A stretch of 64,000 nucleotides of DNA from Gnetum montanum (lineage: Eukaryota > Plantae > Gnetophyta), in NCBI GenBank assembly GCA_015680685.1, contig MNCI01001758.1:1-64000 (forward strand), in the 5' to 3' direction. The translations under genes were made by a program, and so were the position numbers. Below the pieces are notes generated by a model, which was given only the letters and a program-made list of their open reading frames with translations, ran no database searches and was not told the DNA's origin. Positions 865 to 34,765 of the stretch are shown one piece after another (position 1 is the first letter of the stretch; each line of letters starts with the position of its first letter).

Positions 865-882
865 TCCCCGGAAATGGTGCAA
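865..882 (-). promoter_or_regulatory. Primer binding site, tRNA-Asp type (degenerate)
   Basis: + strand tccccggaaatggtgcaa versus the plant tRNA-Asp 3' end TCCCCGGCAACGGCGCCA; 1 nt from the LTR end. Confidence 0.85.
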
Positions 883-883
883 A

Positions 884-1903
884 TGATGAGTGGCGAGGTA
901 CCCCTACACTCAACCATATGAAATGAGCGTAGCACACGCGATCTGGTCGAACTCCACAGACTAAATGCCTAAATGCCCCATGGAACACTTGGGGTTAATC
1001 ATTCGTTGTCTTCCTAGACTTACTTGTTATTGTCATGGTGTATGGTTAAGTAAGTTTGAGGTATATGATTTTTATGATCTTTTATGGTTTTATGTCTTCT
1101 ATGCTAAGAGCGAAGGGTTGAGAAACTAACTCTAAGGGTCTAAGTCTAAGTTAACTAGCATCAGCATCCATTCCCACTTACTGTACATACCCTGAACTAT
1201 GCAACTATGGCTACCAAACACTAAACGTTACTAGGATCACCACACGTAACGCATGTGCTCAAAGTGGTCGTACTAAGGCACTTAACTAGAAGGAAAGGGT
1301 TGAGAGAGCCTAACTAGCCTATGTGCGATGAGCAGTCGATTCCTTGACTAACCGTACACATCTTCCGTGCAAGACTACCACTGGGATTACCAAGCATAGA
1401 TTCTAGATATGCCACTGGGTTACCAAGTAGTCACACAAGATGCTCGTAATCAAGTCGTACTCATAACGCATGCCATAAGCAGCCGATTCCTTGACTAACC
1501 TTACACATCCTTGGATGCTCGTAATCATACCGCATTCTAGGAAAGCAATAAATAACATTTAAATAAAATCCTATTCCATGCACTGTAAGGTTTATCCACA
1601 AAGCTCGTCTTTATTGTCGTACACAACTTGCGTTCAAGTACAAAGCTGCTTGAATAAAGATCCATTCACTTGGGGAATCCTACTATGGGCACATGGAAAA
1701 TATTCTATCTTTGGAGTGATCAAACTACCAAAGTTTTCCTACTTCTAAACCAGGATGAGAAATGAGGGGAGTGCTGCCTCTTATTTATAGATTTGGTGGC
1801 AGACCACGATATCAAGTACACGATATCACATGGGATGCGATATCGCAACGTCTGTGATATCGCGTACATGATATCATGGTGCATGCGATATCACGTCTCA
1901 TCA
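884..1903 (-). repeat. 5' LTR of element A (~1020 bp)
   Basis: Inverted termini TGATGAG...CTCATCA; TATA box ctataaataa on the - strand at 1781-1790; terminal sequence shared with LTRs at 37298, 42773, 46897 and 51382. Confidence 0.9.
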
Positions 1904-3434
1904 CCTCTCCTTCCTTTGTATGCATAAGTTTAAGGATATGAGTATAAAAAGAGAGAGGAGAATATATATATATATATATAATAAACAAGAAAGAATCATT
2001 ACTTATGCAAAGCTAATCATTCTCATTCTGAAGAATGTGCTCATAGTTCAATAAGTGTCGAGGTAAGCAAGTGGCACTCCTTGATTCTCCTAAGATTTCT
2101 TCAAGATTTTTACTAATCACTAGAGCATCATTAGGGATAACATGAAAAGGAGATGAACCACTAGCCTACACCAACTTGTAATCACTCTTGAAGTTATAAG
2201 ACTCGCACTCTCTTAAGTGATACAACTCCTCATGGACAAAGTATGAGGTATTCTTTGTAATCTAATCACTCAAATTACCAAGAAGAACAAGATCTTCTTC
2301 TATAGCAACTACCATCAATCCTAAGAAGTAGGCTGAACCCATTATGGTAATTAAAGGTTTCATGCAAATAGAAAGGGATTTAGAAATAGAAAATTCTAAC
2401 ATGGCTTGTGCATCCCTAGATAGTATAGAACCCTTCATTGGAGTCACCCATAGAGATTGCACTTGAGGAGATATTGGAGGTGGGGTCAGAGTCTATTCAA
2501 AATTAGACATGTGCAAAGAATCCTTCTCCAACTTTTGGATAAAATACCCTTGACCTAAAGGCACAAATAATACAAAAAGGGATGTAACATAAAAAAAATG
2601 GAGTATTCAAAAACCATATATTTGATAACTATTAGTTAAGTTACCATTGGTTTATTTCTTTTCTCCTTTTTCTTATTGCTTAAAATTTTTCCACTAGAAC
2701 CTTGTTCTATGCATTGTTTCTAATAAAGAATTAGAAATAAAATAAATAAATAAATAAACATACATAAAAAACAACAACAATAATGATATTATGTGATTGA
2801 TGATAAAATCCTTGAAACTTAGTTCTATTGTTGCGAGATCATCCTTTCCCTTAGCTTTTGCTAGTTTAGTCTGCAACCTAGGTTGTACTAGCAAATAAAT
2901 ACCATAAAGATACATAATCAATAAATAACAAACATAGAATTAAAAAATTTATATATCTCATTAGTTCCTTTTAGATTAAAAGTCTATATGAGAGCTTTCT
3001 AACCTTTTTGGCATCTTCAATCTCACTCCTTACAATTCTTTCTTTCTCAAGAAATTTAGGGTGTAGATTAGAATTAAAATGATCAAGATTGTTGGTCATA
3101 GTATCATAACCTAAGATTAAGGTCATGATTAGAGGTACAAAACATATAATGTAAAGATTTTTATAATTTCTCTTGTTGGAAATACCATGTTTTATGGCAA
3201 GCTATAAAGTTGAAAAACAAGATAAAAAACAATAATAGATCTTACCATTTTTGGTACCATGAAAAATATAGATAGAACAGGCATTAACATAGGAAGACTA
3301 GGCATTTCATAAAACCTTACTGTATATAAACTAACATAATTCATAACTGGATTTATTAATAAAATCAATTGGATGATATTTATTTTGACATAGAGCAAAA
3401 TCAATAAGATAATTAGACAACTTTCTTTAGAAAA

Positions 3435-3602
3435 ATGCTTGAAACTTAGGAGAGTGTACAGTAGGTATCAAAGGATCCTCCCCTAAGTGAAAACCTAGAA
3501 TTGACTAAACATTGGTAGGAGATGCTTGAAACTTACAAGAGTGTACATTAGGTATCAAAGGGTCCCTAAGTGGAATCCCAAAATTGACTAAACATTGGTA
3601 AG
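3435..3602. repeat. Two-copy tandem duplication, ~87-bp unit
   Basis: atgcttgaaactta...aattgactaaacattggta starts at 3435 and again at 3522. Confidence 0.85.
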
Positions 3603-4784
3603 AGTAATTACTAATTGCCCAAAGATCATTTTTGAATAGAACTTTCCCATATGTGATAAACATTACACCATTACCTTACAAGATCTTTACAATAGGAAGT
3701 TTTAAGAATACAAAAAACAACTTATACAACTTAGAAGTTGTGATATATTTAAAGCCCTCAATGCCTAATAAGCTATGAACCAAATCAATTACTACAATTG
3801 CATTATTTTGATGCAAAATAATCAATAATAATTTAGGGCTACTTGAAGTGGTGGTAGGAGCTTGAATGGAATGATTAGAAGGAGTCATGTTGCTACAAGA
3901 AATATCTACAATTGCTACATATAAATATGATGGGTAAAAAAGACTTTTTTCTATGAATTTATAGGAAGATTTTAAACCCTACCTGCAGTAGAACATGGAG
4001 TAGACTAGAGAAAAGGGCAGTTAAAACTTATGTTAATAAATAATTAATTGTTAATTAATTTTAAGGTAATGGTGATTTTTCTTATTTTTTTATTGATAGG
4101 ATCCATAAAATAACGTTATCATAAGTCCAATGTGTAGCACTCTCCTAGACAATTCCAATAGTACCAATTTCATGAAAATCCAGCTTATGGTTTGTGAGAT
4201 ATTATGTTTCTCTATAAGCATGTCATTTAAAAATAAATAAATAAAAATTTGGGGTTGTGAGTTGAACCAAAAACTCCATCTTCAATAAAAATTTTTTCAA
4301 ATAAATAAGAATATTAAATTTAAAAAAAAAATTAGCCACAAAGGCAACATGGCTACTAGCCACAGGCCAGCTATGCTATTGCATAACTAGGCCCTAAAGC
4401 ATGGCCACATAGCATCACAATAGGCAATTGCAAGTTGGCCTATTGCACCTTTGCATGGCAGGGCCTTGCAACTAGTCTATGGAGCATCGTGGTGGACCAT
4501 TGAGGCCTATCATGGTGGATCATGCCACAACATGGCCTCCTATCATGCCACTACTCATCTTTTGCCTTGCTACCACTCACCTCTTGCTATTGTGACCAAT
4601 CTTGTTGTGTGCATGCTACTTGCCATAGCCTTCCTATGCCTACTTTTTACCAACCCTTGCACTACCATTTGTTTCCCAAGCATTTGCCATATACACAAAT
4701 CCTCATGTCGCCATTATTCCTCGCACCATTGTCCATTGCCCAAGCCACCATTGTCATCTGCACAACCCTTACATCATGGAAACT

Positions 4785-5080
4785 GCTAGTGCTGGGAAAA
4801 CCTACCTCCTAGAACACATTGTGGACACCACAGACATTAGAAAAACCTGCCTCCTTCAACATGCCACTAACATTTTGAGCATTGAAAAAACTTGCCTCCT
4901 ACCAACATGCCATAGAAATCATGACTACTAGAAAAACATGCCTCCTCTAGCCTTCCATGGACACTTTTAGCACTGAAAAAACTTGCTTCCTATAACATGC
5001 CATGAACACCATCAGTGCTAGAAAACCTACCTCCTCTGGCAGCCCATGAACACTATCAATGCTAGAAAAACCTTTCTCTC
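4785..5080. repeat. Diverged tandem array, ~45-bp unit x7, in the leader of chromovirus copy 1
   Basis: The core gaaaa(a)cctgcctcct recurs at about 4796, 4840, 4884, 4931, 4975, 5021 and 5065. Confidence 0.85.
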
Positions 5081-5241
5081 GGTGATGGAAAAAGTTTTTG
5101 ATAGTTGATGAAAAAATTTGAAAATTTTGTTAATTTACAAGAAAAATTCATAAAAACATCAAAATCAAAGTGCAAAAGTTAAATATTTAAATATGAAAAA
5201 ATATTTTTAAAAAAACTGACATGTTGACAATAATTGAAATA

Positions 5242-5308
5242 AGAATTCCATAGTTAAGCATGCATGCCCTAGAGTAGTATTGGGATGGGTGACCTCCTGG
5301 AAAGTCTC
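5242..5308 (+). other. 5S rRNA-derived fragment (A box, IE and C box of the internal control region); not a full 5S gene
   Basis: agaattccatagttaagcatgcatgccctagagtagtattgggatgggtgacctcctggaaagtc versus plant 5S AGAACTCCGCAGTTAAGCGTGCTTGGGCGAGAGTAGTACTAGGATGGGTGACCTCCTGGGAAGTC. Confidence 0.9.
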
Positions 5309-5711
5309 AAAAAATGGAAAATTTTCTTACAACTTTAAGATTCCATAACCTTTGACTCTAGTGTCTAGTTTCAACAAAACAAAAACTATTTATAATAGAT
5401 TTAAATCCTTCAAACGTAATGGGAAAGTTAGATTTAGCTTACAAAAACTCAAAAACTAGTTTTATAACTCATAATTTAGTCATCCATAAAAGCCCAAACA
5501 TTGAATTTTTCTTACTAGAGTCTTTGAAGGCCAATTAAGTTCCCATGGAGGGATCTAGAAATAATGAATTCATTAATGGTAGTTCCAACTTCTTCTAGAA
5601 CCAATTAACTACTTTAGAACCTATAAAAAAATCCACAAAGACTAAGAAACCATCACCTTACCTTTTTTCTTTGACTTATCAATGTTTGTAGTCTAGAGAG
5701 TTCATTGGAAA

Positions 5712-6654
5712 ATGATGAAGTCCCAAGTCAATGATCGAATGGATGCCCTTGAATAAAAAATTAATGAAATTAGAGATGTTTAAGAGGAACTCCATCAATC
5801 AAACCAAGGATTTGGGAGAAATATGCAAAATATGTTGGAAGAGATTAGGAAGTTGTCCCAGAGTTTAGAAGGGAAATGGAAAAAAGTTTAAGGGAAGATG
5901 GATTTCTTTGTAGATTCCATTATGTAATTAACTAATCATTTAATGCAACATCCCAATCAAAACCAATATTCACTAAGAGACCATAACCAAAACCATAATC
6001 AGGAACAATTCCCCCCTAGGGATCAGTATTGAGATCAATCCCCACCTGTTGGATGTCAATGTACTAATATTTCTTCATAAAGCCAAAGAATGGAACTTGA
6101 AGGTAAGGGTTATTAAAATTGGAAAAATTCACCAATAGAATCATTAACTTTGGTTCATGCCAAAAAGGTAAAACTAGATCATTATGAGGAAACCCTTGGA
6201 TCTAGTGCTAAGGTGAAAGTTTAGATTGATACCATGAAGAATTATTTCGATATGTTGAATTTATCGAGCTAAGAATATTTATAAGTAGTCTCTTTCTATT
6301 TAAGGGGACTTGTAGTAACATGGTAGAATTAACTACAATCTCAAGGCTTGATTACAAATTAGCTTAATTTTTGTAGAGATGTCAAACAAAAATTTATATT
6401 TGATTCTTTTCTTAAAGAATGTAAGATGAGATTTGACTTATTGAGATTACACTAATGATCAGTGGAGGATCATTTTAAATAATTCTATGATCTCAACTAT
6501 TATGTAAGATAGTGGGATAAGGGTGAATTAGCTTCAAAGTTCATTGGTGGACTGCATGTTCAACTACATCCCTAGACTCATGCACATAACCCACAAACTA
6601 TTGATGAAACATACAAAATTGTTAAGGATTATAAGGAATCAAATCAATTATAAA
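5712..6654 (+). pseudogene. gag remnant of chromovirus copy 1, interrupted at 6660 by the mini-element
   Basis: Decayed retrotransposon-gag motifs (F/YLRGLVVTW*, ASKFIGGL); homologous to 23780-24318. Confidence 0.7.
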
Positions 6655-6659
6655 CTACA

Positions 6660-9144
6660 TGAGGTGAAGCCTACCTCAATAGACTTCAAAAGGGCCCATT
6701 CCACAAGCTTCTTAAGAAAAATTAACTTAGAAGCAAGAACAAGATAATGAATTGGAGAAAATTTTCCTTTTATGAGAAAACTCTTAAAATGTAGAGAAAT
6801 ACATCAAAGATGAGGAGCCAAGCTCAGCTCACATATCTCCCAAGGATCTTAGAGGTCACATATGTTCCCTTTCAATCCTCAATTACCCATAATGGATATA
6901 AAGCTCAAGACAAGACACTTATAAGACATTCTCTCAACCTCTCTCAAGTGCTCTCCCTTGCCTCTCACTCAAACTCTTCTTGCACAAGCTCTCAAGAAAC
7001 TTCTCAAATCTTATTCTCTCTCCATTTTATCAATATAACACCTTGAACTCTTATTTATAGCTTCTTAGTATGACCTTTTATCTTTCCTCCAATTTTCCAT
7101 TTAATTTGATATTTGTTAAAATCCATACTAGATGTCTTGGAGAAACTGTAGACATATTTCCTAAGTGTAGAGATGTCAGAGTACATGTCTTGAAATCAAG
7201 TTAGACATCTAGTATGCAACTTAGATGTCTAACTGTTAAGGTAGATGTCTAACTTGCCAAGGCCAAAATTATATATGCTCATTTTGAGGTTTAGAACCTA
7301 TGAACATCTTTAAATAAGTCCCCATAGCCCTGGGAACCTCCTAGAATCATTAAAATAAATTCAAAACACTTCCCAACATGGAAAAACACCTTGGAATCAT
7401 GATTAAAATATCAACACAAGAAGACATGCACAAAAACAAGACACATGCATATCCAAGATACATTGAGGATTACACAAGGGCTTGGTGATGTTCTCATCAT
7501 CTCTCCCACCATTAAAATGTCATGCTTAATGATCCTTCACAATCTAGAAAGCACCATGTCCCCATGACTCAAGGCCATAACACTTAGCACAACCATCAAA
7601 ACTCAATGTATCACAAATATGATAATGAGTATCAGTTGAGGTTTTGGTTTTGAGCTTTCAATGTTCTCTCCTTAACCAAACCTTTCATCTTCTTCCTTTC
7701 ATTGATGGCTAGAAGATATTCTCTCAATTCTTCTCAAAATATTTCCCAACCTAGTTTTGAATTTCTCCATATCTCTTCTTCTTGGAGTTTTTGAAAAATC
7801 TTGGTGCTTGTAGGCCTTGACTTTAGAAAGAGTTTCTTGCATTTCAGCCACAAATTCCTTAAAGAATATTTTTGGCTCTTGAAGTGCTTGCCCAAGCTCT
7901 TGATTTGTCTTCTTCTTAAGAGTCATACCTTTCATAGGCCTAAAGGTAAAAATTAAAGCAACAAGAATAATGCCCAAAATAAAATGCATAAATATCCATA
8001 ATAATATTCCTTTCATTTAAAGAAAACACCAAGATTCAACATAAAACTGTAAATTTGAATCAATTTACTTCAAATCCTAGCCTTTCAAATAAACTAGTGC
8101 TCAAAAATCATAAAATAAACTTGATCTTACAATATTCAAGCATTCTTTACCAATATTAGGTTCTTTAAATCCTAAGTGGCTATAAAGCTTCACAATTCTT
8201 CAAAATTTCTCCAAAAGCTTGATGAAGATCAACAATTCAAGTGTGAAAACCTCCAAACCAAATGCATATGTGTGGATTCCTCCAAAGAAAATGCTTTGAT
8301 ACTAACTTGATTTGATTACTACCTCAATAGACTCTAGAAGGATCCATTCCAAAAGATTCATAAGCAAAATTTCTTAGAAGCAAGAATAAGATAATGAATT
8401 GGAGAAAATTACCCTTTTTATAAGGAAAATTTTAAAATGTAGAGAAATACATCAAAGATGAAGAGCTAAGCTCAACTCACATCTCTCCAAAGGATTTTAG
8501 AGGCCACATATGTTCCCTTTTAATTTTCAATTGCTTAAAATGGAGCTAAAGCTCAAGAAAAGATACTTATAATAGATTCTCTCTACCTCTTAAGTGCTCT
8601 CCCTTGCCTCTTACTCAAACTCTTCTTGCACAAGCTCTTAAGAGACTTCTCAAATCTCTTTTCTTTTTCTCTTTTACCAAATCCAGGTATTGGACTCTTA
8701 TTTATAGCTTCTTGGTATGACCTTTCATCTTTTCTTCAATTTTCTATTCAAATTTATGTCTATTAAAATTTGGATTAGAATTCTTGGAGAAATAGTAGAT
8801 GTCTTTCATAAGTGTAGAGATGTTAGAGTAGACATCTTGAAATCAAGTTAGATGTCTAGTATGTAGCTTAGACATCTAACTATTAGGGTAGATGTCTAAC
8901 CTAATAAGGCCAAAATTAAAGATACTCATTTTGACGTTTGAAATCTTCAAACACCTCCAAACAAGTCCCCATATCCCCAAGAACCTCCTAGACTCATCAA
9001 AATAAGGCCAAAACACTTTCAAACATGGAAAAACACCTGGGGATCATCATCAAGAGGTCAACATAAGAAGACATACATAAAAATAAGACACAAAATATCC
9101 AAGATACATTCAAGATTACATAGGGTTGGGTGATGTCCTCATTA
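6660..9144 (-). mobile_element. Complete non-autonomous LTR mini-element (2485 bp), CRM-like termini
   Basis: LTRs at 6660-7499 and 8308-9144; TSD CTACA at 6655-6659 and 9145-9149; degenerate tRNA-iMet PBS (+ strand gctttgatacta, 8293-8304); PPT gggagaga at 7500-7507; LTR start TGATGAGAACATC resembles CRM-clade TGATGAGGACATC. No pol. Confidence 0.92.
7699..8016 (-). CDS. 105-aa ORF in the mini-element: hydrophobic N-terminal segment followed by a charged helical region; probably a truncated remnant of a longer ORF
   Basis: Sense to the element and occupies the internal domain. MKGILLWIFMHFILGIILVALIFTF is a ~22-aa hydrophobic stretch. No recognisable family. Confidence 0.4.
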   Translation of the reverse strand: MKGILLWIFMHFILGIILVALIFTFRPMKGMTLKKKTNQELGQALQEPKIFFKEFVAEMQETLSKVKAYKHQDFSKTPRRRDMEKFKTRLGNILRRIERISSSHQ

Positions 9145-9149
9145 CTACA

Positions 9150-12100
9150 ACCCTATGACAAGTAATGGTAGAAGAAACATCTACCAAGAGAACTTTATCT
9201 GGATGTTACACTAGCAACGAAGATCATTTTATGTAGGATTATCCAAAATTAACTGTAAGGATATAAAGAAACAATCAAAATAAGAAAAAAAAATTCAACA
9301 CTAGTGTGGCCAAGAAAAAAGCTAAGAAAATTTTAGCATTGGCTAAGTCAATTTTGAGGAAATTTTAAATTGCTTTACTCATTTTTAAAGTGTTGATTGA
9401 AGGGAAAAAGGATAAATGTTTTATCAATAGTAGAGTAAGTGATAGTTTTATTTCACTAGCTTTAATTAAGTCATTTAATCTAACATTACCTTCCAAAAGT
9501 TATTAAAATAGAACTTTCAGATGGAACAACTGTGATTAAGTATATTAAGTATGGAGAAATTTAATTTTACCATGTAAGATATTACTTTTATTGGTTAATC
9601 AGTTGAATTTGAATTAGAAGATATCGATGTAAACTTAGAAATGTGTTTCCTACAAAAATTTCATGTTACTCTCCATTTTGAAACCTATGTCTTGAAAGTA
9701 TCAACCATGCAAAGATTTAGGGTTTTGATGGAGGTTGGAATAGAAAAGAAAATATATATGATAACTATTAAATAAGCTAAGCTATTAGCCAAGAAAGGTT
9801 CTACCATGTTCATTATTAAACTCAACCCCAGAACCTTTTGACATTGAGATCCGAAAACAACTTATAGAGTACAAGAATTTAGTATTTGGTGATAGTAGAG
9901 ATTTATTGCCAAAGAGAACTATTAACATGCCATTGATGTCTTTCTAGATATAAAACTACTTTTAAAAGCCCAATATAGATTTTCCCCTTCAGAATTAAGG
10001 GAATTAAAAGTATAATTAGACCAATTATTAGAATAAGGAAATATTCAACTAAGTGTCTTACCTTGGTATGCACCAATTTTATTTATTAAGAACAAAGATG
10101 GTACATTGAGATTATGCATTGATTATAGAGAATTAAATAAAGTAATGATTAAAAATACTTATTCCTTTCCTAGGATTGACAACTAGTTTGATCAACTTAC
10201 TAGAGTATGTTGTTTTTCCATAATTGATATGAAGTTAGATTATCACCAAATAAGGATTAAAGAAAAATATATTGAGAAAAATGCATTTAGAACTAGGTAT
10301 AGATTATAAGAATTTATGGTGATGCCATTTGGATTAACTAATGCACTTGGAACATTCATGGCATTAATGAATAATATCTTTCAAGAGTACCTTGATCAAT
10401 TTGTTATTATATTTATGGATGATATACTTGTTTATTATAAGTTAAGAGAGGAAAATGTTAAACTTTAAAAAATTAAAATGGGAATCATCAAGGAACATCA
10501 TTAAAAGGTAAAATTAAGCAAATCCAAACTCTTTAAAGAAGAAGTATCATACTTGGGTCATATAGTATCTAAGCAACGATTTCAAGTAGATCCATCAAAA
10601 TTTACTGTAGTTTGTAATTGGTCAGAACTTAAAGATAATATAATAGTTCACAATTTCTTGGATTTAATAGGCTTTTATCAATGTTTTATTAAAGCTTATT
10701 CTACTTTGGTCATTCCCTTGACTAGCCTCTTGCAAGAACTATGTGTGTTTAAGTTTAATGAAAAATGTAGGGCATCTTTTCTAAGAGTAAAGATACTACT
10801 AACAATGGTACCAATCCTACGAATCTTAGATGAATAAAAGTATCTACAAATTTCTTTGGAGTATGGATTTATGTAGTTCTTTCATAAGAAGATAAAGCAG
10901 TATGTTGTGAGTCTTGTAAATTATGAGAAGCTGAGGTAAGTTACTTAATCCATGATTAGAATTACTGATAATTATTTATGCTTTAAAGGTTTGGAAACAT
11001 TACCTTTGTGGAAAATTATTTGCACTAGAAACAAATAATAAAAACCTAGAATATCGATTGAGACAACCCATCCTAAACACCCAACAATGAAGGTGGATAC
11101 AATTACTGGTTGAATATGATTTTGAGATTAAATATATTTTAGGTAAATAAAATATAGTGGCTAATACCCTTAGTTGAATGTAGAACCTGATGATGATGCT
11201 ATGATAATTCCTATTGAAGATGAGATCAAGGAACAAATGAAAGAAGTTCCTTCAAGAAAATTTTAGCCAATATTTCTTTTGAGACTTGTTGCCACCTTTC
11301 CTCAGATGGTCTATTGATGAAGGGACAGAGAGTATGCATACCAAAATAAAATTGGAGAAGTTATTGTCCAAAGCTCAAAAAGTTCCATATGCTAGACATC
11401 CTAGATATGTTAGAACCTATGTGATGATACATAAGTTTTATTTCTAGCCTAGAGTAAAGAATGATGTATCCACATACATTAAAAATCGTCCAATCTACTA
11501 GAGAGTGAAAGTTAAAAAAAATAAACCAATTGGATTATTACAACCTTTGGAGGTCTCAACATGGAAATGGAAAGAACTATGGATTTCATTGTAGGATTAT
11601 TGCTAAATAAGAAATGAAATGACTCAATATTGGTGGTAGTTTATCACCTTTCGTAGATGCCTCATTTTGTATCTTTGAAATTTACAAACATAGCTAAATA
11701 AGTAGTACAAAATTTTTTACAATGAGTATTTTAGCTACATGAGTGTCCAAAATCAATCATCTTGGATAGAGATCCTAAGTTTATCTCTAGATTATGGTGA
11801 AACTTCTTCAAGGAACTTGAGACTCAATTAAACTTCAGCACAATGTATCACCTAGAAATAGATGGTCAAATAGAACGTGTCAATCAAATACTCAAAGATA
11901 TTTTACAGAGCTAAGTTGGAAGTATACCAAAGATATGGGAGAATTATTTGCATCTGGTTGAATTCACCAATAAAAGTAATTATTATGGATCCATACACTA
12001 GAAGTTATATATAGAAAAAATTGTCAAACACCAGTACCTTGGGTAGATCCAACTCTAAGTACATAGTGAAAGAAAGAAGAAATGAAAATCATGAAAAATA

Positions 12101-12580
12101 TTATTACAAGAGTTAAACACAATTTGAAAGTAGCCTAGGATAAGTATAAGGAATATGCAGATCAACATCATCTTAAGAAGGAATTCCAAATTGAGGATCA
12201 AGTGCTATTGAGAGTAAAACCCATAAAGAGTTCCCTTAAGTTAGAAAAATATACTTAGCCCCTAGACACTATGGACTTTTTGAAGTTTCAAAAAAAACTA
12301 GTGAAGTAGGCTATCGATTAAGTCTCCCAATGAATTTAAGGATTCATCCTAATTTCCATGCAAGTTTACTAAAGATGTTCCATGAGAATGATATGCCTTG
12401 TGTCCTAGATTGAAATACCTTACCCCTAAGATCTAGCAACAGCTTTAAGGTCATACCAATTGCAATTAAGGACCATAAAATGAAGAAAATTCATAATAAA
12501 AGCATTACTAAAATACTCATTTAATGGTCTAATTGTAATCAATAAACTTGGAAAAATAGGCACTTTATTCTCAACACCTA
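9150..12580 (+). pseudogene. Decayed gag-end/pol of chromovirus copy 1 (Zn knuckle, PR, RT, RNase H, INT, chromodomain remnant)
   Basis: [24 protein letters not shown] (~10070-10140); MPFGLTNA; FMDDILVY (~10415); KVWKHYLCG...EYDFEIKY (~10990-11135); DRDPKF and DGQIERVNQ (~11765-11890); many stops and frameshifts. Confidence 0.93.
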
Positions 12581-12791
12581 GAATTAACTTTTGATGATCA
12601 TGATATTGAGCAATAAATTATATTTATTGTCAATTGATAGCAAGAAATTAATTTATGATTTTTTATATGTACAAATCACAATGAAGATAATAAAGGAGCT
12701 AAAATGAAGATTATAGCAAGGATGTAATTGCTATATTGTTGGACATAGATGAAGCACTAAAGGATGAGCTAGATTCTCAAGGAGCATGGAT

Positions 12792-13150
12792 TGTAATGTC
12801 TCATCCCTTGTTAAGGATAGAATTACATATTAGTTATAAAATTAACATTCAAAAGAAGGAGTGACTCATTATGAAGAGTTGTAACTATTCATCCTCGGGA
12901 ATGGGTTTGACCTTTAACATTTAATGTTAGGTTTAGAGGTCATATCAGGATGAAGTTGTAGAACTAAATTGGCAAGTGATATGAGTTGGGTAAAGTGGGA
13001 CAACAAGGAATTGATCACTCCTTTAGTTGGATGGTCTAACTATATGATAGTGCTAGATTGCCTTTAAGATCCTAAGTGTCACAAGAAGATAACCTAGGGT
13101 TGTAACAATGTACCAACGATTTCATGAATGAAGTTCCACTATTATTTCTT
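12792..13150 (+). repeat. 3' LTR (partial) of chromovirus copy 1
   Basis: Starts tgtaatgtc after the purine tract aaggagcatggat; 12930-13095 is homologous to 19490-19650 and 34430-34590. Confidence 0.75.
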
Positions 13151-13199
13151 TTTTCATTTAATTCCATGTTCATTCATAATTATTTTTCAAGTTAAAGAA

Positions 13200-16100
13200 G
13201 TAACTAAGTGATTTTCATGCAATATGACAATTTTATGCAATGAATGATTGTATTTCATCAACATCTAGAAACAGGATATTACCCATAAGAAATAATAATC
13301 ATGTTGTTGTATACTTAAGAAGAGATGATTGATGGTTTCAATGTGTTCCTTACTTATGTTTTAAAGGAAAGTCACTATAATGATTTTATATCCATTGTAC
13401 ATGCAATCAATTTTTATGAAATGTAGATCATAATCATAAAATATCAAATTCATGATTATTCATTATGATCTTCATTCTAGTTTTCACTTTACATATACTA
13501 ATATCTCTATCTCAGTATTTTTGGTTTTTACCTTGTATTAATTATTTGACTTCATAATAACCATTGTATTAATACATAGTTGGGTATTATCATGATGTTT
13601 AAATATTATTTCTAATCTATTTTTTTCACATTGTTATGCACATACTTATATTTCTATTTGTGAGTTACATTATTTTGGATTTATCATAATCATTATCTCC
13701 ATAGACATTCATCATCATAATTTGCATGTTTTTGTAACTTATCAATACGTAGTTGGACTTGTTCATCCTCATTCTAGGGATCTTAATTCTTAACATTGTA
13801 TTGGAGCTAGGTTGGTTCAACCATATATCCTTTATGGCACATTTGCAACATGAATGTAAAGCTTGTTCTTTATAGGCTTCTCTATAGTCATGAAGAGTTG
13901 CATTTGCATTAGGATTTTTGTCATTTTAAGATACTTTATGAATTTATGGGTTAAATTGATTTCTCATTTCTTATTCATCCTTCATCTATACTCTTAGTTG
14001 TTGTACCTAAATTCAACTACAATTCCCAAAACATTCACCATTGCATGTTATTTTATCTTATCCACCCTTCAATTAATGTATCTACTTTGTACAAATAAGT
14101 TATGATATAAAAATGAAAGGACATAATCCCTAGTAATAAGGATTCAACATTGAAGTGCTTGCAAAGTGTGGGCTTAATCTTATAGGTGGATTTATTATAT
14201 GAAGTGTTAACTTCATATGATACTACAATTGATGACTTGTTATAATCCTTGGATTTGGGATTGAGTGTAGAAAAACCCAAGCTCTATATCATAAAATAAT
14301 TCAAAATTTCCATGTAAAATTAAATTCTCAATGATGTAAAGGATTAATCATAGAGCTTTCCAAGGAGTTTTTTGCATCTAGTACTTTGTCATTTATTGCT
14401 TTTAAATAGTTAAAGATTGATTATGAGGTGGTATTTCTTACATATATAAGTTATTACAAAGATTTGTTTTTATATAAATTTAATTAATATTTTTGGATTC
14501 TAAAGTTTTTTTTCAAATGTTTGAGGTTTTACATTAGAACCATCGCATGTGATGGTGAAGTAGATGTATTCAATATTAACCATGTCGATTTGCTTCAAAT
14601 GTTCATTGACATCACTAGTTTTAATAGAGATGATAAGTAGATGAACTTATAGTTTCCATGATCTTATCTATAGGAATTAGGAAGTAGCATGCCATTAGTT
14701 ATTTCCACCCACATCATTGTGGAATATAATAAAATCAATACCACATGTAGAGTTCTTAGATTATTACAATCACAAGTATGGTTGGAAATAGAGATAAATT
14801 AATTTAAAGTCCTCAAGAAAAAAATAACTAAATAAATAAGGTTGTTTTATCATTATAATAAATGGAATTTCTCTCATAGTATTGTTCTTCATTTATATAT
14901 ATTCATTATGTTACATGTTGAGTTTGTGATAATTAATATCCTTAAGAGAACAAGGGATAACTAAAACATTAACAATTTATATGAGGTTACAGTTGCTTGC
15001 ATGAAAGAACAGGTCATGGTTTAAGAAGAAGAAGAAAATAAAATAAAGGAAACTATAACAGTTCTAGAGAATTCATGGTCAAGTCCTTCAAATATGTCAT
15101 TAAAGATTAGCATTGTAGATTTCGTCATGTACCATTATGCCTTGGAGAAAAAATTTCAGGAGTATGAAGCTATAGTTGAGTTCCTTAACTTACCCATTAA
15201 GAAAGATATTCTAGATTATTACATTTACAACTTCTTTTCCTAGAAAATCTTGATGAAGTGTAGTTTTAAGTACCTAAATCCAAGGTCATGGAAAGCATAA
15301 CAATGGATATTGTAGAAGTTTGCAAATAATCAACTATCACCTTTACCAAAAACAAGGTACTCCTCTCTCTTATTTATTCATATTATTATGCTATAACCTA
15401 TTTCATGTTAGGAAAGAAGGAAAATGAGAAGCTATCAAAAGCTTAGTCCATCCACCATAATACTTTGACACAAGTGGATGAGTTAGTTTAGAAGTTAAGA
15501 AGCTTGGAGATCTAGGAATTATCAAATAGCTTGATGTAGAAGAAATTTAAAGGATAAAAAGGAGAAGTGTCACATTGATGAAAAATGAAAAGCAAGACAT
15601 AAAAGATCTATTACTATTGAAAGATCTAAAGATGTTACTTTGACTATGGTTGAGGTAGTAAGATTGTAGTTGGAAGAGGAGCATAATAAGGAATTACAAG
15701 AGAGGATGACTTCAATAACCATTGATCTAAACTTGGAAAAATCTATGAAGAAATTTTCATTAAGGAACTTCAATAAGGTAGAATCTTAAAGTTAAAGTAA
15801 AAGTTAAAGAGAAGCTACAGAAGAAGGATAAGATCCTTAAATGTTTAGAGGTTGAAAAGAGGGTTCACCAATTACTTTAGCAAGTAAAATTGTCAACTGA
15901 ATTTGTACAAGTTTCTAATTATGTTGGTGAGCTTTAAAATGATTTAATTACTAATAACATAGCCATTATAGATCTTTCTTTGATCATGGATCATTTTATA
16001 ATTTAGTGGGTAACTAGTTTAATGTTAAATATCATGGGCTTTACATCTTCTTCCTCTGCATCTTCCTCTTCTACTCCTTTTCATTCTTCTATGGTGACAA

Positions 16101-19479: not shown

Positions 19480-19829
19480 AGAGTTCAAAGACTTAGGGGT
19501 AGTGCCAACATGAAGTTGGAAAGCTAGTAATGTTGAGCAACAAGAGTGAAGTGAAGTGGGATAAGAATGGATTTATCACCCCTTTAGTCTTATGGTCTAA
19601 CTATACTAGTAGTGCTAAATTACCTCTAAGGATCTTAAGTGTCATAGAAAGAAAACTTCAAGCACTCCCATGTTAATATTGTTTCTATTATCATCATCAT
19701 CATTAATAATTTTTTTTCTTCTTCTTTTTTCCTTTCTTCGAAGTGCCATTGTTCTATTTGACACATATTATTCAAGTTATGGACAACATAGCATAATTTA
19801 TTCCTAACATTTGAAAATAGTATGTCACA
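19480..19829 (+). repeat. Putative 5' LTR (alignable part) of chromovirus copy 2
   Basis: Colinear with 34420-34765, both ending tagtatgtca(c/t)a; followed by PBS-like ttggtactcaag. Confidence 0.7.
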
Positions 19830-22800
19830 TTTGGTACTCAAGAAAATCACAATCCATAGACTAGAAGTAGAATCAAGAAAAATATAAGAATCCATGTTTT
19901 ATTATGTATGTTAAATCAAGTACATCAGTGGAAAGAAGTATGATAATAATAATAAAGAAGAATGAGATAACAATGGAAAGGAAATAATAAAGAAAAAAAT
20001 TAGCATGGAATAAGGATGAATTTAAAATTTTAGACAAAATGACCAAACCAATTCTTTTACTATTTTTTCCTGAGCCTCACCTTCCTCCTTAGTAGCTCAT
20101 CCTTCTAAAGTAGATTGCAACATGTAGCTAATCAACTACCTAGTTGATATATGTATCTTGCATTACTTTTGGTAGCTTCCTTAGCCTTTGAAGCCTTCAA
20201 ATTTTCTATGTTTAGCAACTCAACCTAGATATCATGTTGAACAATGTCCTTCTTCCATTCTTTTCCTGCTCTACACACAAAGAAACCAATATGGATGTTA
20301 AGAAAAAGGAAAAAAAGGATAAAAATATAAAATAATAAATTACCTCTTGCATGAAGGTGATAATTTTCCAACTAGAGTAATCATTCGTAGTTCAACAAGT
20401 GGCATGTCAAAAAAGAGAAACTCTCCAACTCTCCCAAGATTTGCTCAAAAGTTTTGATTACTTCTAAAGAATTCTTAAGAATTAAATGATAGTCAAAAAC
20501 ACCACTAGACTACATGAACTCAAAATCATTCTTGAATTCTTAGAACTAATAATCTCATAGATGGAATAATCCCTCTCAAATAGAACTCAAGGTGTTCTTA
20601 GTAATTTGATCATTACGATGATGAAACAAAAGGATCTCCTCTTCATTGTTAGCAACCAACTATGTAAGGGAGAAGGAAGAATCCTTGATGGTAACCAATC
20701 ATGATATAGTGATGGACACTAGACCAAAGATTTTTTTCTACAAAATGGAGAGAACCAGTAAAACTAGAGGTTTTGATGGAAGTGGTCCATGAAGACACTA
20801 GCTTATGAGACTTAAACAAGTTTAATGTTGAAGTAGTGGTCCTATGAGGTTCATGATGAAGGATGGAATCCAACCCTTCCATTTCTATTTGTTGAACAAT
20901 GAACCACCAACTTAGTGATACCTACCAAAGAAATAAAGTGTCAAAACCACAAATAAAAAAGGTAAACAAACTCAATAAATAGATAGGAGTTACCTTCAAT
21001 TATTTCTATTTTTGAATCCTATTAGGACCTTCACCATCTATACATAACTTCAAATTAATTGAAAAGATAAGATTATTAGAAAAGAGGTAAAGATTAAAAG
21101 GAAAAATATTATTATTATTATTCTTTTAAGATAGTAAGAAAGTACCTTGGAGGCTAGTTCAACCATTTCATCTTTTCTTGAATCCTTTTCATTAATGCTA
21201 GATATAGGATTGGTTTGCACTCTAGAGTTCAATACTACATAAAAATATAATAACAAAAAATTAATAATAAATTCAAAAATAGAAAAGAACATGCAATACC
21301 ACTTCTATAACCTTAGGATTTTGAGCCTATGAGATCATTTATCAACTCATTTTTAAACTTTTTAAGGTGAAATCTTAGGATTTGTTCATCTTTAAGGAAT
21401 GAGGAATATCACCTAGGGTCATAAGGGAGGAAACAAATATTGTCAATATCATAACTTAAGATGAGGGTCATTAGCATGGACACACACTATATTGAGAATT
21501 TAGTGGCATGAGCCTTATGTACATAAAAAAAGTATTTTATAGTAGTGAATAAGTAAAAGAAACATGTATATGAGTGGTCATATACCCTACCATTATTGGC
21601 ACTATGTGATAGAAAAATATGAAATATGAAAACTTGGTATGTGTGAGGTTTCTAGAACACTCTACACTCTAGAAATAAACAAATTTAAAATTCAACACTA
21701 TGGTTAAATTCCTTCTATTCAAAACATGTATGAGGAATGCTGGATATGTTGACATACTCAAGAAGTCATTTGCAAAAAAATCATAAAACTCTTAACATTT
21801 ACAATTGGTTGTAAGGGTATTTCTTATAATATCATGAGTAATTTTAGCATGTCCAAAAACTAGTTTAGAACCATTACTTAACTTGGAATTATACAAATCA
21901 TCCCATCAAAGAATAGGTTCTACACATAAAAGATAGGCTTGAAGGAAGGAGAAAACTAGCAAATTGGATATGTGGAAAGTATTTAAAAATTCATAATTAT
22001 CAACTTTAAGTAAATATTGAACAAATTCAATAACCTCTATAACATTATTCTAATACAAAATAATAGTTACTTGTAGGAATGCCATGTCACTACTTAGAAG
22101 GGCATATAGTAGGTTGATTGAAATGTTTAGGAAAATTCATATCTACTACCTTCTTCTAATATTATATATCTCTTTACCTACTTTAATCTTTCCTTATAGC
22201 TTCAATGTAGAGTAAATCCTTATAGATTATCACAATTTATAAAAAAACCAATATCAATTAGATGCGAGGTCAACATAAGATGAATAGTTTATTTCTATAA
22301 TGGTCACTACCAAGTAGAAAAGATGGGGCATTTCAAACAATCAAAAATGTATTTAATTAGTTAATTAATTAACTATCATTAATTAAATTCACATGATTTA
22401 TTTTTCTTTTGGGGATTTTTTGATTCAAAAGAGTAGAGTTTTTTAATCTCAATACATAATATTCTTCAAGATAATTTCAATAGCACCAATTTTGTCATGA
22501 TATGATATATGGCTTGGGAGATATCACGATTCTCAATAAAAATTTCAATTAACTTATTTAAAATAAAATTTTAAAAATCATTATTTTAGAAAAGTCAAAA
22601 TTCTAAAATTGGGGATGGGAGTTAAGCTCATAACCTCCTAGTCAATAATCCCAAATATTAAGTGTTTTTCTACTGGTTCACTAGTGCCAGCTTGCTAGTT
22701 GCTTCTAGTAAGGGTGATATTCCCTAATTAAATAATATTTTTTATAAAGTGTAATTAGAAAATTTTAAATTTTTTTTCATGCCCATAGTAGTAGCTAGTA

Positions 22801-23283
22801 TGGTTGTGCAACATAGGCCTAGCCACTATGTCATGACTAGGCTGTACCTAGCTACCATGCATCATGTGCCTTCATTGTGCCATAGTTAGCCTTTTCTTGT
22901 ATTTTGTTCACTTGCTCACTACATCACCACCATCACTATACTCCTTGCATTTCCACCATTACTCTATCTCACATGCTTTACCATGTGCCCTAGCTCTACT
23001 ATCATCTCTACCCATTGCAAGTTGTTCCTTGCCTCATAAAAATTCCTTTAGGAATTTCATAGAGAAGAAGTACTAGCATCAATAGGCACCACAAGCACCA
23101 ATGCCCCATACTACCAAGCTTCATGATGGTAGTAAGTACTAACATTGGTAGGCACAATAGGTACCAAAGTCCTTTGGTAGGAAGATTTAAAATTTTTGTT
23201 AAAAAATAAAAATTCAAATTCAAATATAAATATTCAATTCTAGTTAAACCAATGCCTCATAGATGTAGAAATAAAAATTTGAT

Positions 23284-23338
23284 AATTAATTATACTAGTT
23301 TTGGAGTAGTATTAGTATGGGTGACCTCTCAAAAACTC
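23284..23338 (+). other. More decayed 5S rRNA-derived fragment at the equivalent position in chromovirus copy 2
   Basis: gagtagtattagtatgggtgacctc (23304-23328) matches 5S GAGTAGTACTAGGATGGGTGACCTC; ~450 bp upstream of gag, as in copy 1. Confidence 0.75.
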
Positions 23339-24318
23339 TTGAGATTCATGTAACTTTTGGAAAATATAAAACTACCATAGCTTCTGATCTTGGAAGCCTC
23401 TTATGATGAATGAAGAATCATTTCCTATAGATTTCAACCTTTTGAACATATTGACATGGTCAAAATGGCCTTATGAGATCCTAAAAATTAGTTATAAAAC
23501 TCATACAAATGATTATTTGAAAGTTCTTAAAAATTTAATTTATATATACATATTAAGATTTGAGATGGGTCTTAACAACCAAATATTTATTTCTATCTAA
23601 TTCCAATCCTCCAAACCCAATTCCATTGAAGGTTTTGGTTAATTAGATGGAGAAAATTTGTTGCTAGCCATTCCATATCCTTTAAGAAACTATATAACAA
23701 TTTATGATCTTGATAAAAAAGAGTCATAGGGGTAGTTATCTTCCCTATCTTCTCAGCATAGAATCAAAAGAGCACATTGGTAAATCACAAGCGACCGCAC
23801 CAATGATCAATTGGATGTCCTAGAATAATATATGAGATCAAGGATGCTCAACAAGAGCTCTATGATATAAATCAAGGGTTTGAGAACTATATGAAAGCTA
23901 TGTTAGAGGAGATTAATGTTTTATGAAACATTTCCAAATATAAATGGTCCAAGGTTTAAGGAAAGATGAACTCTTTTACTAATTCCATCAAAAAGTTGAT
24001 AGAACATTTGTTCCAGTCCCATAACCAAAACCAAAATCAACATCAAAATCATCATCAAGATTATTCCCAACTAATTAGGCATATAGAGAATGAAAATCCA
24101 TGTCAAAGATTAAGATCTAGACTAGGGGAAGAAACCCATTAGATTTAACTAAGCCAAAGAGGAAAATCATTAATTGAATTCCATGCTAAAAAGTTAAAAC
24201 TAAATTCTTATGATAGAGCCCTAGGATCTAGTACTAAAGTAAAATATTGGCTTAATACTTTGAAGAACTACTTCAACATGTTAATGCTATTGAGCCAAGA
24301 ATGCTAGGAAGTTATTGT

Positions 24319-26105: not shown

Positions 26106-26108
26106 TAG

Positions 26109-32628: not shown

Positions 32629-33226
32629 TGACGAGAGCAGTTACTCTAGTGGGTTATTCTAATTATTTGAGTAGTAGTTTCTCTAAAATTAGAGTGGCAG
32701 TTTTTCTAATTATTAGAGTAGTTGTTCCTAAGCCTATAAATATAGTGCCCAGGCACATAATTAGGGGGAGTCTTTCTTACTTATTTCCTTTATTTTATTT
32801 TCTTCTAAATTTATTTTATTTTATGCACTTTACATCTCTGTTATTAGCACACATAATACGATCACTTCGAGCATGCATGTAACACTTGGTAACCTAGTAA
32901 TGATTAGCGTTTGGTAATCCTAGTAGTGTTGCACTAGTTTGGGATGTGTACATAAAGTGAGAATAGATACTGGTGTTAGGATTAGTTTAAAGCCTAGTTA
33001 ATCAATGGTTAAGTTAAATTAGTCACTTAGTTATCTCTCTCTCTCCTCCCTTATTAGCAGCAGGACATAAAAACATAAAAGCTATAAAAATCATATGCCT
33101 CAAACTTACTTAACCATACAATCATGACATACAAGTAAGTTTGGGAAGACAACGATCAACCAACCCATCCTTGTTCCACAAAGGCGCATAGGCACTTAGT
33201 CCTTGGAATTCGACTAGATCGTGCGT
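32629..33226 (+). repeat. 3' LTR of element D, missing its last ~50 bp
   Basis: Starts TGACGAG right after the PPT; TATA ctataaata at ~32734; stops at gatcgtgcgt before the family terminal sequence. Confidence 0.85.
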
Positions 33227-33228
33227 AA

Positions 33229-34090
33229 AAACATGGATGTCCCAAATTAATCAAATTTAATTGAGACCTAATATTTATTTTTATATGTTGGTAGAACATT
33301 TTCAAGGAGCTTAAAAATCAATTAAATTTCAACATGGTGTACCACCTAGAAATGGATGGTAAATTCAAATGAGTTAATTAATTCTTGGAAGACATTTTAA
33401 GGAGTTATATTAAGAGCAATCCCAAGATATGGAAAAATTACTTACACTTGAAAATACTTACCTACAATAATAGTTATCAAGGATCAGTTCATAGGATCCC
33501 ATTTGAAGTTTTTTATAGGTAAAACTATTGAACATCATTATCTTCGGCTGACCCTACCTTAAGAGTAGAATGGAATAAGGAAAAATTTAAAATAATAAAA
33601 ACATAGTTATGAAAGGAAAGAAAAACTTGTAAGTAGACCAACAAAAATACAAGGGACACATAGACCAACATCACCTTAAGAAAGAGTTCCAAATTGATAA
33701 CCAAGTATTGTTAAGAGTTAAGTTAATAAGAGGTTTCCTAAAGATAGGAAAATACACGATATTGGACCATTGATACTATGGAACATTTGAAGTTTCAAAA
33801 TGAATTGACAAACTTGCATACTGACTAAACCTCCTAGTGATCCTAAAAATCCACTCTATCTTCCATGTCATCCTATTAAAGAAATTTCATAAAAATAAGA
33901 AATCCTATGTACTAGACTAGAAAAAATTATTCCTAAGGTAAAAAGTGAGTTAAAAATATTTTTATCAAAGAATATAAAATAAAGAAACTTTGAAATAAAA
34001 CAATTATGAAAGTATGCATTCAATGGTCAATCTATGATCAAGAAACATGGAAAAATAGGAATTTCATTTTGAACTCTTATCCTCTTCTTT
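33229..34090 (+). pseudogene. Integrase C-terminal half plus chromodomain remnant of chromovirus copy 2
   Basis: HGCPK, YHLEMDGK, YNNSYQ, YYGTFEV, IFHVILLK, CIQWS...ETW; homologous to 11737-12590. Confidence 0.85.
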
Positions 34091-34280
34091 TTGAATATAA
34101 TGATAATTAATATAATTAATTATTAAATTAAATGAGTGTTAGAAACTAATATAAATAATTTTATGGAGATGCTATTAATTTTGGAGTTAAGAATGAGGAT
34201 AATATGGAGAATATAATTACTAAATAGCTATATATCCAAGAGAAGAATGAGAATGAACAAGATTCTAAAGGGAGGTAGAT

Positions 34281-34765
34281 TGTAATGTTTCATTCTCAAT
34301 TATGGAGTAGAATTGTATTATATGTAAATAATGTAATTAGGTTTCAAATGAATGGGTGTCTCGTTATGAGGAGTTGTAATCTATTGTGCTACCCTGTGGG
34401 TGTTTGACCTATGATATATAAGACTGAGGACTTAGAGGTGTTACCAACATGGAGTTGGAAAGCCAACAATGGTTAGTGATGAGAGTAAAGTAAAGCATGA
34501 TAAGAAGGGACTAATCACCCTTTTGGTCTTATGGCCTAACCTTGGTAGTAGTTCTAGATTGCATCTAAGGATCCTAAGCATCAGAAAGAGAATCCAAAAG
34601 GTCCTCCTATTAAAATTTTTTCTATCATCATCATCATCATCAATAAAATCATTTTCTTCTTTTCTTTATTAATTTTAAGTGTCAATATTTTATTTCAAAT
34701 ATGTTATTCAAGTTATCAATGATGAAAGATCATTTATCCCTAACATTTAAACATAGTATGTCATA
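34281..34765 (+). repeat. 3' LTR of chromovirus copy 2 (~485 bp)
   Basis: PPT aagggaggtagat then tgtaatg; homologous to 12792-13100 and 19480-19829. Confidence 0.8.

What the first reader, a model, noticed from the sequence alone, without database searches (positions are those of the whole stretch)
5242..5308. 5S rRNA internal control region embedded upstream of gag in two copies of a gag-pol chromovirus family
Seen: a ~65-bp 5S match covering A box (agttaagcatgc) to C box (gggatgggtg) lies ~400 bp before gag in copy 1, and a more decayed match lies at the equivalent position in copy 2 (23284-23338). It is therefore part of the family, not a chance pseudogene. Established: Cassandra TRIMs carry this same 5S segment, but in their LTRs and without coding capacity. 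Inference: here it is internal, sense to gag and kilobases from the LTR in an autonomous-type element. It could act as an internal Pol III promoter, a TFIIIA/TFIIIC-bound insulator or tether, or be related to the origin of Cassandra-like 5S capture.
Basis: partly seen in the sequence, partly recalled or inferred. Interest (0 to 1): 0.75.

Follow-up and report, generated by a model that had tools for sequence, protein, structure and literature searches.

The report
5S promoter inside gag-pol retrotransposon
An old family of protein-coding jumping genes in a plant, likely a gymnosperm, carries the core promoter of the 5S ribosomal RNA gene in its interior just ahead of gag, a placement I found described only in the terminal repeats of tiny non-coding elements, where it likely served as a docking site for RNA polymerase III factors rather than as the promoter of the element's own RNA.

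Summary
Window 5239-5305 is a gapless copy of 5S rRNA nt 37-103 (55/67 identical; A box to C box). A more decayed copy sits at 23271-23337. Both lie 410-450 bp before gag in dead, collinear Ty3 chromovirus-type elements. In copy 2 the block is 3.4 kb behind the 5' LTR and primer site, past a decayed antisense ORF, and it is in none of the three LTRs. Contigs of two runs show element-type flanks on dozens of other 5S-block contigs, and three joints tie the block to gag-proximal sequence, so it is a family part. Non-deamination changes cluster between A box and intermediate element (p about 0.02), as in Cassandra, which points to past selection on promoter boxes and spacing. It cannot drive gag or genomic RNA: there is no primer site downstream, and a T4 run lies at +120. 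A DNA-level TFIIIA/TFIIIC site is the likeliest role; its benefit is untested. In a more distant species the A box directly follows a tRNA-Met primer site, a second undescribed layout. Eight literature searches found no precedent. No genome, young copy or expression evidence was available.

The parts
5239..5305 (+). 5S-derived internal control region module, copy 1 (5S nt 37-103): A box about 5252-5263, variable linker 5264-5271, intermediate element, C box 5282-5291
   Evidence: 55/67 gapless against L036 5S; 8 of 12 differences are C>T or G>A; RF00001 24.3 bits. A-box limits are recalled; the C-box motif is from PMC10853983
5322..5325 (+). T4 run at 5S position +120, where the terminator of a real 5S gene begins (candidate Pol III terminator; the predicted start would be near 5203)
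   Evidence: about 4-5% of 5-nt windows in the leaders hold a T-run start, and the two copies are not independent, so weak
23271..23337 (+). 5S-derived module, copy 2 (more decayed)
   Evidence: 41/67 gapless; 17 of 26 differences are C>T or G>A; nt 70-94 are 23/25 identical to copy 1
23355..23358 (+). T4 run at +121, copy 2
5306..5471 (+). Gapless 166-bp non-coding segment after the block, shared with 23338-23503
   Evidence: 93/166 identical without gaps; no stable fold in 5326-5471 (z -0.46)
5712..6650 (+). gag, copy 1, one frame broken by stops
   Evidence: profile from 21 fetched relatives, E 2e-9; no Pfam gag hit
1968..4130 (-). Decayed antisense ORF in the 5' leader of copy 1 (limits approximate)
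   Evidence: tblastx 36% over 136 codons with 20312-20719, gapless; low stop density in successive minus frames; no Pfam hit in 1949-3600
4793..5054 (.). 45-46-bp tandem repeats in the copy 1 leader
6657..9142 (.). Nested LTR element (two 840-bp LTRs, 82% identical) that splits gag from pol; sets a minimum age for copy 1
   Evidence: K2P 0.20
9171..12569 (+). pol of copy 1: protease (weak), RT, RNase H, integrase, SH3-like and probable chromodomain; broken
   Evidence: RVT_1 E 3e-25, SH3_Tf2-1 E 1e-10; tblastn to P0109; protease E 0.003 and chromodomain E 1.4 by own profiles
12779..13229 (+). Polypurine tract (12779-12791) and 3' LTR (from 12792; end about 13229, uncertain) of copy 1; no 5S inside
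19480..19843 (+). 5' LTR of copy 2 (5' part not recognisable; ends 19829) and decayed tRNA-Met primer-site-like sequence 19832-19843
   Evidence: 76% identical to the 3' LTR, K2P 0.30; primer-site call by eye
23784..24310 (+). 5' part of gag, copy 2
   Evidence: 63-70% identical to copy 1 gag
33232..34765 (+). Integrase end, probable chromodomain, polypurine tract and 3' LTR (34281-34765) of copy 2, behind a nested element at about 24480-33230

Best explanation
The block is a 67-bp piece of a 5S rRNA gene (A box to C box) that sits inside the leader of a gag-pol Ty3 retrotransposon family, and it was likely kept by selection as a DNA binding site for TFIIIA and TFIIIC while the family was active. 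Shown: 5S origin, internal position 3.4 kb behind the primer site and about 0.4 kb before gag, gapless box spacing, shared non-5S flanks, and presence in other copies. Inferred: one capture in the family's ancestor from a non-angiosperm-type 5S gene; TFIIIA binds the boxes, recruits TFIIIC and TFIIIB, and would at most fire a short transcript of about 120 nt (near 5203 to the T run at 5322) that is neither genomic RNA nor gag mRNA. The least certain step is the benefit: an occupied Pol III complex between the leftward antisense ORF and the rightward gag-pol would hold this junction open or shield it from spreading silencing. The two window copies are long dead.
For: (1) Sharp limits at 5S nt 37 and 103, the same roughly 70-bp core that Cassandra keeps (PMC10853983). 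(2) Changes other than C>T/G>A against 5S fall in the A-box/IE linker (nt 62-69): 7 of 16 cells against 3 of 92 elsewhere in nt 50-103, permutation p 0.0012; counting shared changes once gives 5 of 8 events, p 0.021. This is the region of Cassandra's variable MotIE, with no indels. (3) Between the copies the core is 23/25 identical against 93/166 in the next flank (p 0.0003, window chosen after the fact); boxes 35/46 (p 0.017). K2P block 0.40, integrase 0.44, leader 0.57, flank 0.72. (4) In runs X1 and X5, 69 contigs each carry the deaminated letter at 5253, loose ends with element-type flanks occur in 21-40 contigs per row, and summed depth is about 1,600 there and about 2,400 at the gag start against 30-150 in the flanks. 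(5) Joints 5294-5703, 5296-5726 and 5304-5583 put block and gag-proximal sequence on one contig at the right spacing (3 of the 15 joint rows shown, 24 rows not shown). (6) The A box is kept although its RNA pairing partner (5S nt 14-32) is gone, and neither copy folds like 5S (z +1.1, +0.5): this favours a DNA role over an RNA role.
Against: Only two copies could be read in full, both decayed. The whole block against its flank is not significant (47/67 vs 93/166, p 0.055; transversions p 0.066), and other 27-nt leader windows reach the same or higher identity in a gapped alignment. Contig depth is not a copy number, and true 5S genes and pseudogenes swamp the C-box bins. The joints have short sides (23-28 letters) and the sequence between the sides is not known. 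No binding or transcript was seen: 27 of 12.6 million RNA reads were laid, none at 95% or more, with no start-site pile-up (oligo-dT library). The insulator benefit has no direct evidence.
Confidence: 0.5

Rival explanations
1. Relic or passenger: the 5S piece was captured once (template switch onto co-packaged 5S RNA, or left over from an ancestor in which it followed the primer site and drove transcription) and has been carried along without a function at its present place.
For: Whole-block conservation is only borderline (p 0.055). Organism F has the A box directly behind the primer site, a layout in which a Pol III promoter makes sense; a later gain of the 3.4-kb antisense-ORF cassette would have stranded it.
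Against: Box-versus-linker pattern and fixed spacing; the 5S sequence on both sides of the control region has been replaced entirely while the boxes remain 82% like modern 5S in a copy older than K2P 0.20. The module starts at nt 37 in organism A but at nt 49-50 in F, so the captures may be separate.
Confidence: 0.25
2. The block is the middle of an ancient Cassandra-like solo LTR or a 5S SINE that inserted into the family's ancestor and whose ends have eroded.
For: Same roughly 70-bp core and variable linker as Cassandra. Chance-level TG...CA pairs with 5-bp duplications can be drawn around both blocks (5 and 2 candidates).
Against: None of those candidates is shared between the copies; there is no second 5S block nearby, no tail and no 5S 5' end. 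Cassandra is reported absent from gymnosperms and 5S SINEs unknown in plants (PMC10946416). Flanks are collinear for kilobases. The test has little power at this age.
Confidence: 0.12
3. The block works in the genomic RNA: helix IV and loop E of 5S (nt 73-102) bind TFIIIA or ribosomal protein L5 and help export or packaging, next to the gag-proximal packaging region.
For: The best-kept part (nt 70-94) is also helix IV/loop E; sense orientation; copy 1 still folds the helix IV hairpin.
Against: The 3' strand of helix V (nt 104-109) is lost; the A box is kept without its pairing partner; copy 2 does not fold the hairpin.
Confidence: 0.1
4. One old segmental duplication of a chance 5S pseudogene next to gag, not a family feature.
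For: The two copies lie 18 kb apart in one window.
Against: The copies differ more from each other (K2P 0.33-0.36 in LTRs, 0.44 in integrase) than copy 2's own LTRs do (0.30), which fits separate insertions (the LTR margin is small); dozens of other contigs carry element-type flanks.
Confidence: 0.03

Closest known systems
Cassandra TRIMs (PMC10853983, PMC7215508, PMC10946416: passages read; Kalendar 2008 not held, seen only as cited)
   Same: [quoted passage not shown]
   Different: Cassandra has the module in the middle of both LTRs, is 565-860 bp and non-coding, and uses it to transcribe its genomic RNA. Here it is single, internal, 3.4 kb behind the primer site in a roughly 12-kb gag-pol element, and cannot make the genomic RNA. 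Cassandra is reported absent from gymnosperms.
Ajax and Helenus (TRIMp3; PMC10886601, parts 1-4 of 6 read)
   Same: Ajax keeps only the three 5S promoter motifs and no 5S fold.
   Different: Animal, fungal or Selaginella TRIMs with the promoter inside the LTR. The paper argues that autonomous partners must use Pol II and knows no autonomous family for Cassandra.
SINE3 (5S-headed SINEs; as summarised in PMC10886601 and PMC10946416)
   Same: 5S internal promoter in a retroelement.
   Different: SINE3 has the 5S head at its 5' end and a LINE tail; none is known in plants. No head 5' end or tail here.
Tekay-like chromoviruses, nearest rows Pinus taeda PITA proteins (P0106, P0109, P0111)
   Same: gag-PR-RT-RH-INT order, SH3-like and probable chromodomain; integrase 50-52% identical to the pine rows against 37-42% to the next; RT in a 95% clade with pine and angiosperm rows.
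   Different: A 3.9-kb leader with an antisense ORF and a 5S module. Whether the pine elements carry 5S could not be seen. The label Tekay is recalled, not from a call.

Membership tests
Cassandra | 5S-derived region inside the LTRs | tested here: not met
   No 5S match in any of the three LTRs; both matches are internal
Cassandra | Short, non-coding element | tested here: not met
   gag, RT, RNase H, integrase present
Cassandra | About 70-bp core over A box, IE and C box with variable linker and no indels | tested here: met
   5S nt 37-103, gapless; changes cluster at nt 62-69
Cassandra | Pol III transcript starting from the 5S region | not testable with these tools
   One oligo-dT run, 27 reads, no start sites
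Nested Cassandra-like solo LTR | TG...CA ends and a 5-bp target-site duplication around the block, shared by the copies | tested here: inconclusive
   Only unshared chance-level candidates; low power at this age
SINE3 | 5S head from the gene's 5' end, plus a LINE-like or A-rich tail and target-site duplication | tested here: not met
   5S nt 1-34 match 9/34 and 7/34; no flanking repeat of 9 bp or more shared by the copies
5S rRNA gene or whole pseudogene | Full 120-nt sequence and fold | tested here: not met
   24.3 bits against gathering 38; folding z +1.1 and +0.5
Ty3 chromovirus | PR-RT-RH-INT order and RT grouping with plant chromoviruses | tested here: met
   (quick tree, long branch for the window row)
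Ty3 chromovirus | Chromodomain at the integrase end | tested here: inconclusive
   Aligns to the chromodomain residues of P0109 at the right place (32-34%, E 1e-5 in a small search); Pfam Chromo and an own profile give no significant hit
Ty3 chromovirus | Named lineage (Tekay, Reina, Galadriel, CRM, Tcn1) | not tested
   No labelled reference set was on hand
Autonomous LTR retrotransposon | Intact gag-pol in living copies | tested here: not met
   Both window copies are broken; copies with intact frames could not be looked for (no genome)

The most novel reading that the evidence does not exclude
Gymnosperm LTR retrotransposons evolved their own way to use the 5S promoter: placed directly behind the primer site, as in organism F, it would start Pol III about 32 nt inside the 5' LTR and so supply a primer-site-bearing genomic RNA with no promoter in the LTR. 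The gag-pol family here descends from that design or is its autonomous partner, which would make it the first coding LTR element with a 5S promoter and a candidate source of the module that Cassandra moved into its LTRs.
Probability: 0.17. Interest if true: 0.87.

Novelty: new variant of a known kind. Interest (0 to 1): 0.63.

Why it matters
5S promoters in LTR retroelements are on record only in the LTRs of tiny non-coding TRIMs, the autonomous partner and origin of Cassandra are open questions, and gymnosperms are said to lack Cassandra. A coding family with the same core module in its interior, plus a primer-site-adjacent layout in another species, gives concrete candidates for how the module enters LTR elements and shows that it can be kept for something other than making the element's RNA. 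Many dispersed internal copies would also inflate 5S copy counts and FISH signals in such genomes.

Tried and rejected
No genome is held, so no copy census was possible. Rfam at window scale: 0 matches. No tRNA genes. Protein search with the broken gag: 146 candidates, none significant. Metagenome scan for primer site plus 5S boxes: 0 stretches. Metagenome scan for the non-angiosperm C-box: 18 loci, all 5S arrays or lone 5S pieces, none with similarity to the window beyond 5S. Viral contigs: 0 in four scans. Prokaryote genomes: 31 short contigs; the 20 tested by Rfam are plant 5S genes, used only as references. No RNA holder listed. A second read lay over the copy 2 leader was not obtained, so depth along the leader and any LTR-to-block joints in organism A remain unseen. 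The antisense ORF stayed unidentified: no Pfam hit (the single frame tried for 3103-4130 also gave none), and no homology search of it was completed. A second LTR inside the leader was sought and not found on the + strand. Earlier scan notes: none on this genome or sequence; 8 of 21 word hits were shown and all concern LINEs or SINEs in other genomes. A primer-site-like remnant just upstream of the block in organism A was considered and rejected as too weak (5 of 12 letters in each window copy, by eye). Pol III as the gag promoter was rejected.

Full report
1. Observation. A C-box pattern finds two sites in the 64-kb window, 5274-5296 and 23306-23328, against 0 in 100 shuffles. Plant 5S genes fetched as contaminant contigs place copy 1 at 5S nt 37-103 (window 5239-5305; 55/67, no gaps) and copy 2 at 23271-23337 (41/67, no gaps). 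The best 69-nt score in 100 shuffled windows was 38 against 55 observed. Outside nt 37-103 the likeness falls to background. Rfam gives 24.3 bits, below the gathering score, and only in a narrow search. Copy 1 has T68 and G80, the letters of the L032-L049 type of 5S, not of the L001-L031 type; overall identity to the two types is equal. I read the L032 type as conifer-like and the L001 type as angiosperm-like from recall.

2. Anatomy. Copy 1: leader from about 1949, block, gag 5712-6650 (profile E 2e-9), a nested LTR element 6657-9142, pol to 12569, polypurine tract, 3' LTR from 12792. Its 5' LTR was not found; another repeat family lies at 865-1875. Copy 2: 5' LTR ending 19829, primer-site-like 19832-19843, 3.4-kb leader, block, 5' gag, a nested element of about 8.7 kb, the integrase end, polypurine tract and 3' LTR 34281-34765. 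The two leaders are collinear at about 57-60% and share a decayed antisense ORF (36% over 136 codons). The block thus lies between a leftward ORF and rightward gag-pol. The integrase is nearest to pine elements (50-52% against 37-42%), and the RT falls in a 95% clade of pine and angiosperm rows on a long branch of a quick tree of 113 rows (RT hits under 190 aligned residues were left out). The chromodomain is only weakly supported. A gymnosperm host is inferred from the 5S letters and the integrase.

3. Age. Copy 2's LTRs differ by K2P 0.30; the element nested in copy 1 by 0.20. Between copies: LTR 0.33-0.36, integrase 0.44, gag 0.40-0.53, leader 0.57, block 0.40, flank after the block 0.72. 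These are old, separate insertions. Most differences from 5S are C>T or G>A (8 of 12, 17 of 26), the decay expected of methylated dead copies.

4. Family membership. On 4950-5850 at 80% likeness, X1 and X5 laid 1,326 and 1,327 contigs. The C-box bins reach summed depths of 350,000-550,000 against about 8-9 for the locus's own contigs; true 5S genes and pseudogenes probably dominate there (some gymnosperms have over 100,000 copies; PMC6526317, abstract and passages). The element signal is separate: 69 contigs per run carry A at 5253 (depth about 1,600), the gag start reaches about 2,400, and the flanks 30-150. Loose-end rows of 21-40 contigs resemble the window's own non-5S flanks on both sides; other rows are the true 5S 3' end. 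Only 23 of 612 loose-end rows and 15 of 39 joint rows were shown. Three shown joints join the C box to 5583, 5703 or 5726, and one (61 letters a side) to 5419. Depth is no copy number, but the order of magnitude is one to a few hundred copies.

5. Signs of selection. Changes other than C>T/G>A fall in nt 62-69, between A box and intermediate element: 7 of 16 cells against 3 of 92 (permutation over all 8-nt windows p 0.0012); with the shared changes at nt 65-66 counted once, 5 of 8 events, p 0.021. Cassandra shows a variable motif at this place without indels (PMC10853983, passages). The loose ends show further linker variants. Against this: the whole block is only marginally better kept than its flank (p 0.055), the transversion contrast is p 0.066, and other short leader windows score as high in a gapped alignment.

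6. Mechanism. By established knowledge the 5S control region binds TFIIIA, then TFIIIC and TFIIIB, starts Pol III about 50 nt upstream of the A box, and Pol III stops at T runs. Here the start would be near 5203, and the first T4 after the block begins at +120 (copy 1) and +121 (copy 2), with 4 and 3 such runs between block and gag start (both copies also have one T run upstream or within the decayed linker). The product would be about 120 nt, without primer site and unable to fold like 5S. It cannot be genomic RNA or gag mRNA. A role as a bound DNA element at the junction of the antisense ORF and gag-pol is my reading (0.5); openness or insulation as the benefit is inference. Rivals: stranded relic (0.25), eroded nested solo LTR or SINE (0.12), RNA motif (0.10), chance duplication (0.03). 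RNA run X14 gave 27 reads, none at 95% or more, six with an element-like upstream flank, and no start-site signal; it neither supports nor refutes.

7. A second layout. In X10 (organism F, which shares next to none of the stretch's words), 304 contigs were laid, nearly all on the 5S block. The two upstream loose-end rows shown (9 and 15 contigs, agreement 0.71 and 0.60) end in the tRNA-Met primer-site motif plus 4-5 letters, directly before the A box, both in the same register; the four downstream rows diverge from 5S near its 3' end and show no T4 run within 30 letters. Counting back, 5S +1 would lie 32 nt inside the 5' LTR, so Pol III could make a primer-site-bearing RNA from an internal promoter. 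I saw 30 letters a side only: size, coding content and kinship to the window's family are unknown, and the 5' limit differs (nt 49-50 against nt 37). A scan of metagenome contigs for this layout found 0.

8. Prior art. Searches found 5S-derived promoters only in TRIM LTRs (Cassandra, Ajax) and SINE3. PMC10946416 (passages) and PMC10853983 (passages) state that Cassandra is not reported in gymnosperms. PMC10886601 (parts 1-4 of 6) states that no autonomous family is known for Cassandra. PMC7025596 (passages) reports Ty1 remnants inside Musa 5S units, the reverse arrangement. PMC7215508, PMC12222929 and PMC8312256 (passages) added no precedent. Kalendar 2008 was not held. No supplements were read; Repbase, REXdb, subscription papers and genome-paper supplements could hold an annotation of this family.

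9. Verdict. Real, a family component, and apparently undescribed in position and host; works like the Cassandra module at the level of promoter boxes but fails Cassandra membership. New variant of a known kind; interest 0.63, limited by dead copies, no assembly and no functional data.

Noticed in passing
run X10 (organism F), loose ends at window 5251-5252 and 5297-5310: 5S A box directly behind a tRNA-Met primer-site motif in 9 + 15 contigs: an LTR element with the 5S promoter at the very start of its internal region.
   Followed up: partly
window 1968-4130 and 20312-about 21780, minus strand: Decayed antisense ORF of possibly 600-700 codons in the 5' leader of both copies; no Pfam match; unidentified.
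   Followed up: partly
runs X1, X5 at window 5260-5321: 5S-like sequence at a summed depth tens of thousands of times that of single-copy contigs, with T rather than C at 5S nt 95 in most of it: a very 5S-rich genome.
   Followed up: partly
window 6657-9142: Nested element with 840-bp LTRs (K2P 0.20) and an internal part of only about 800 bp; a primer-site-like motif near 8290-8305 suggests minus orientation; probably non-autonomous.
   Followed up: partly
window 24480-33230: Large nested region with a second, distant Ty3-type gag and RT (RT 29394-30223), related in inverted orientation to 38746-42164 and 49177-51072.
   Followed up: no
window 35158-35900: Primer-site-like motif followed by a decayed frame that looks like a Ty1/copia gag (by eye).
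   Followed up: no
window 4793-5054: 45-46-bp tandem repeats just upstream of the block in copy 1, largely absent from copy 2.
   Followed up: no
window 865-1875, 37298-38146, 42754-43635, 46897-47573, 51288-52185: Another LTR-like repeat family in five or more copies.
   Followed up: no
L001-L031: 31 short contigs of plant 5S rDNA inside named bacterial genome assemblies: contamination.
   Followed up: partly
L034:1393-1505, L041:1604-1722: 5'-truncated 5S copies in non-rDNA context, both beginning near 5S nt 14-17.
   Followed up: no
window 5335-5470 and 23370-23500: The gapless segment after the block recalls a CATAAC-type motif that I remember from plant LTR retrotransposon ends; recalled only, no reference on hand.
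   Followed up: no
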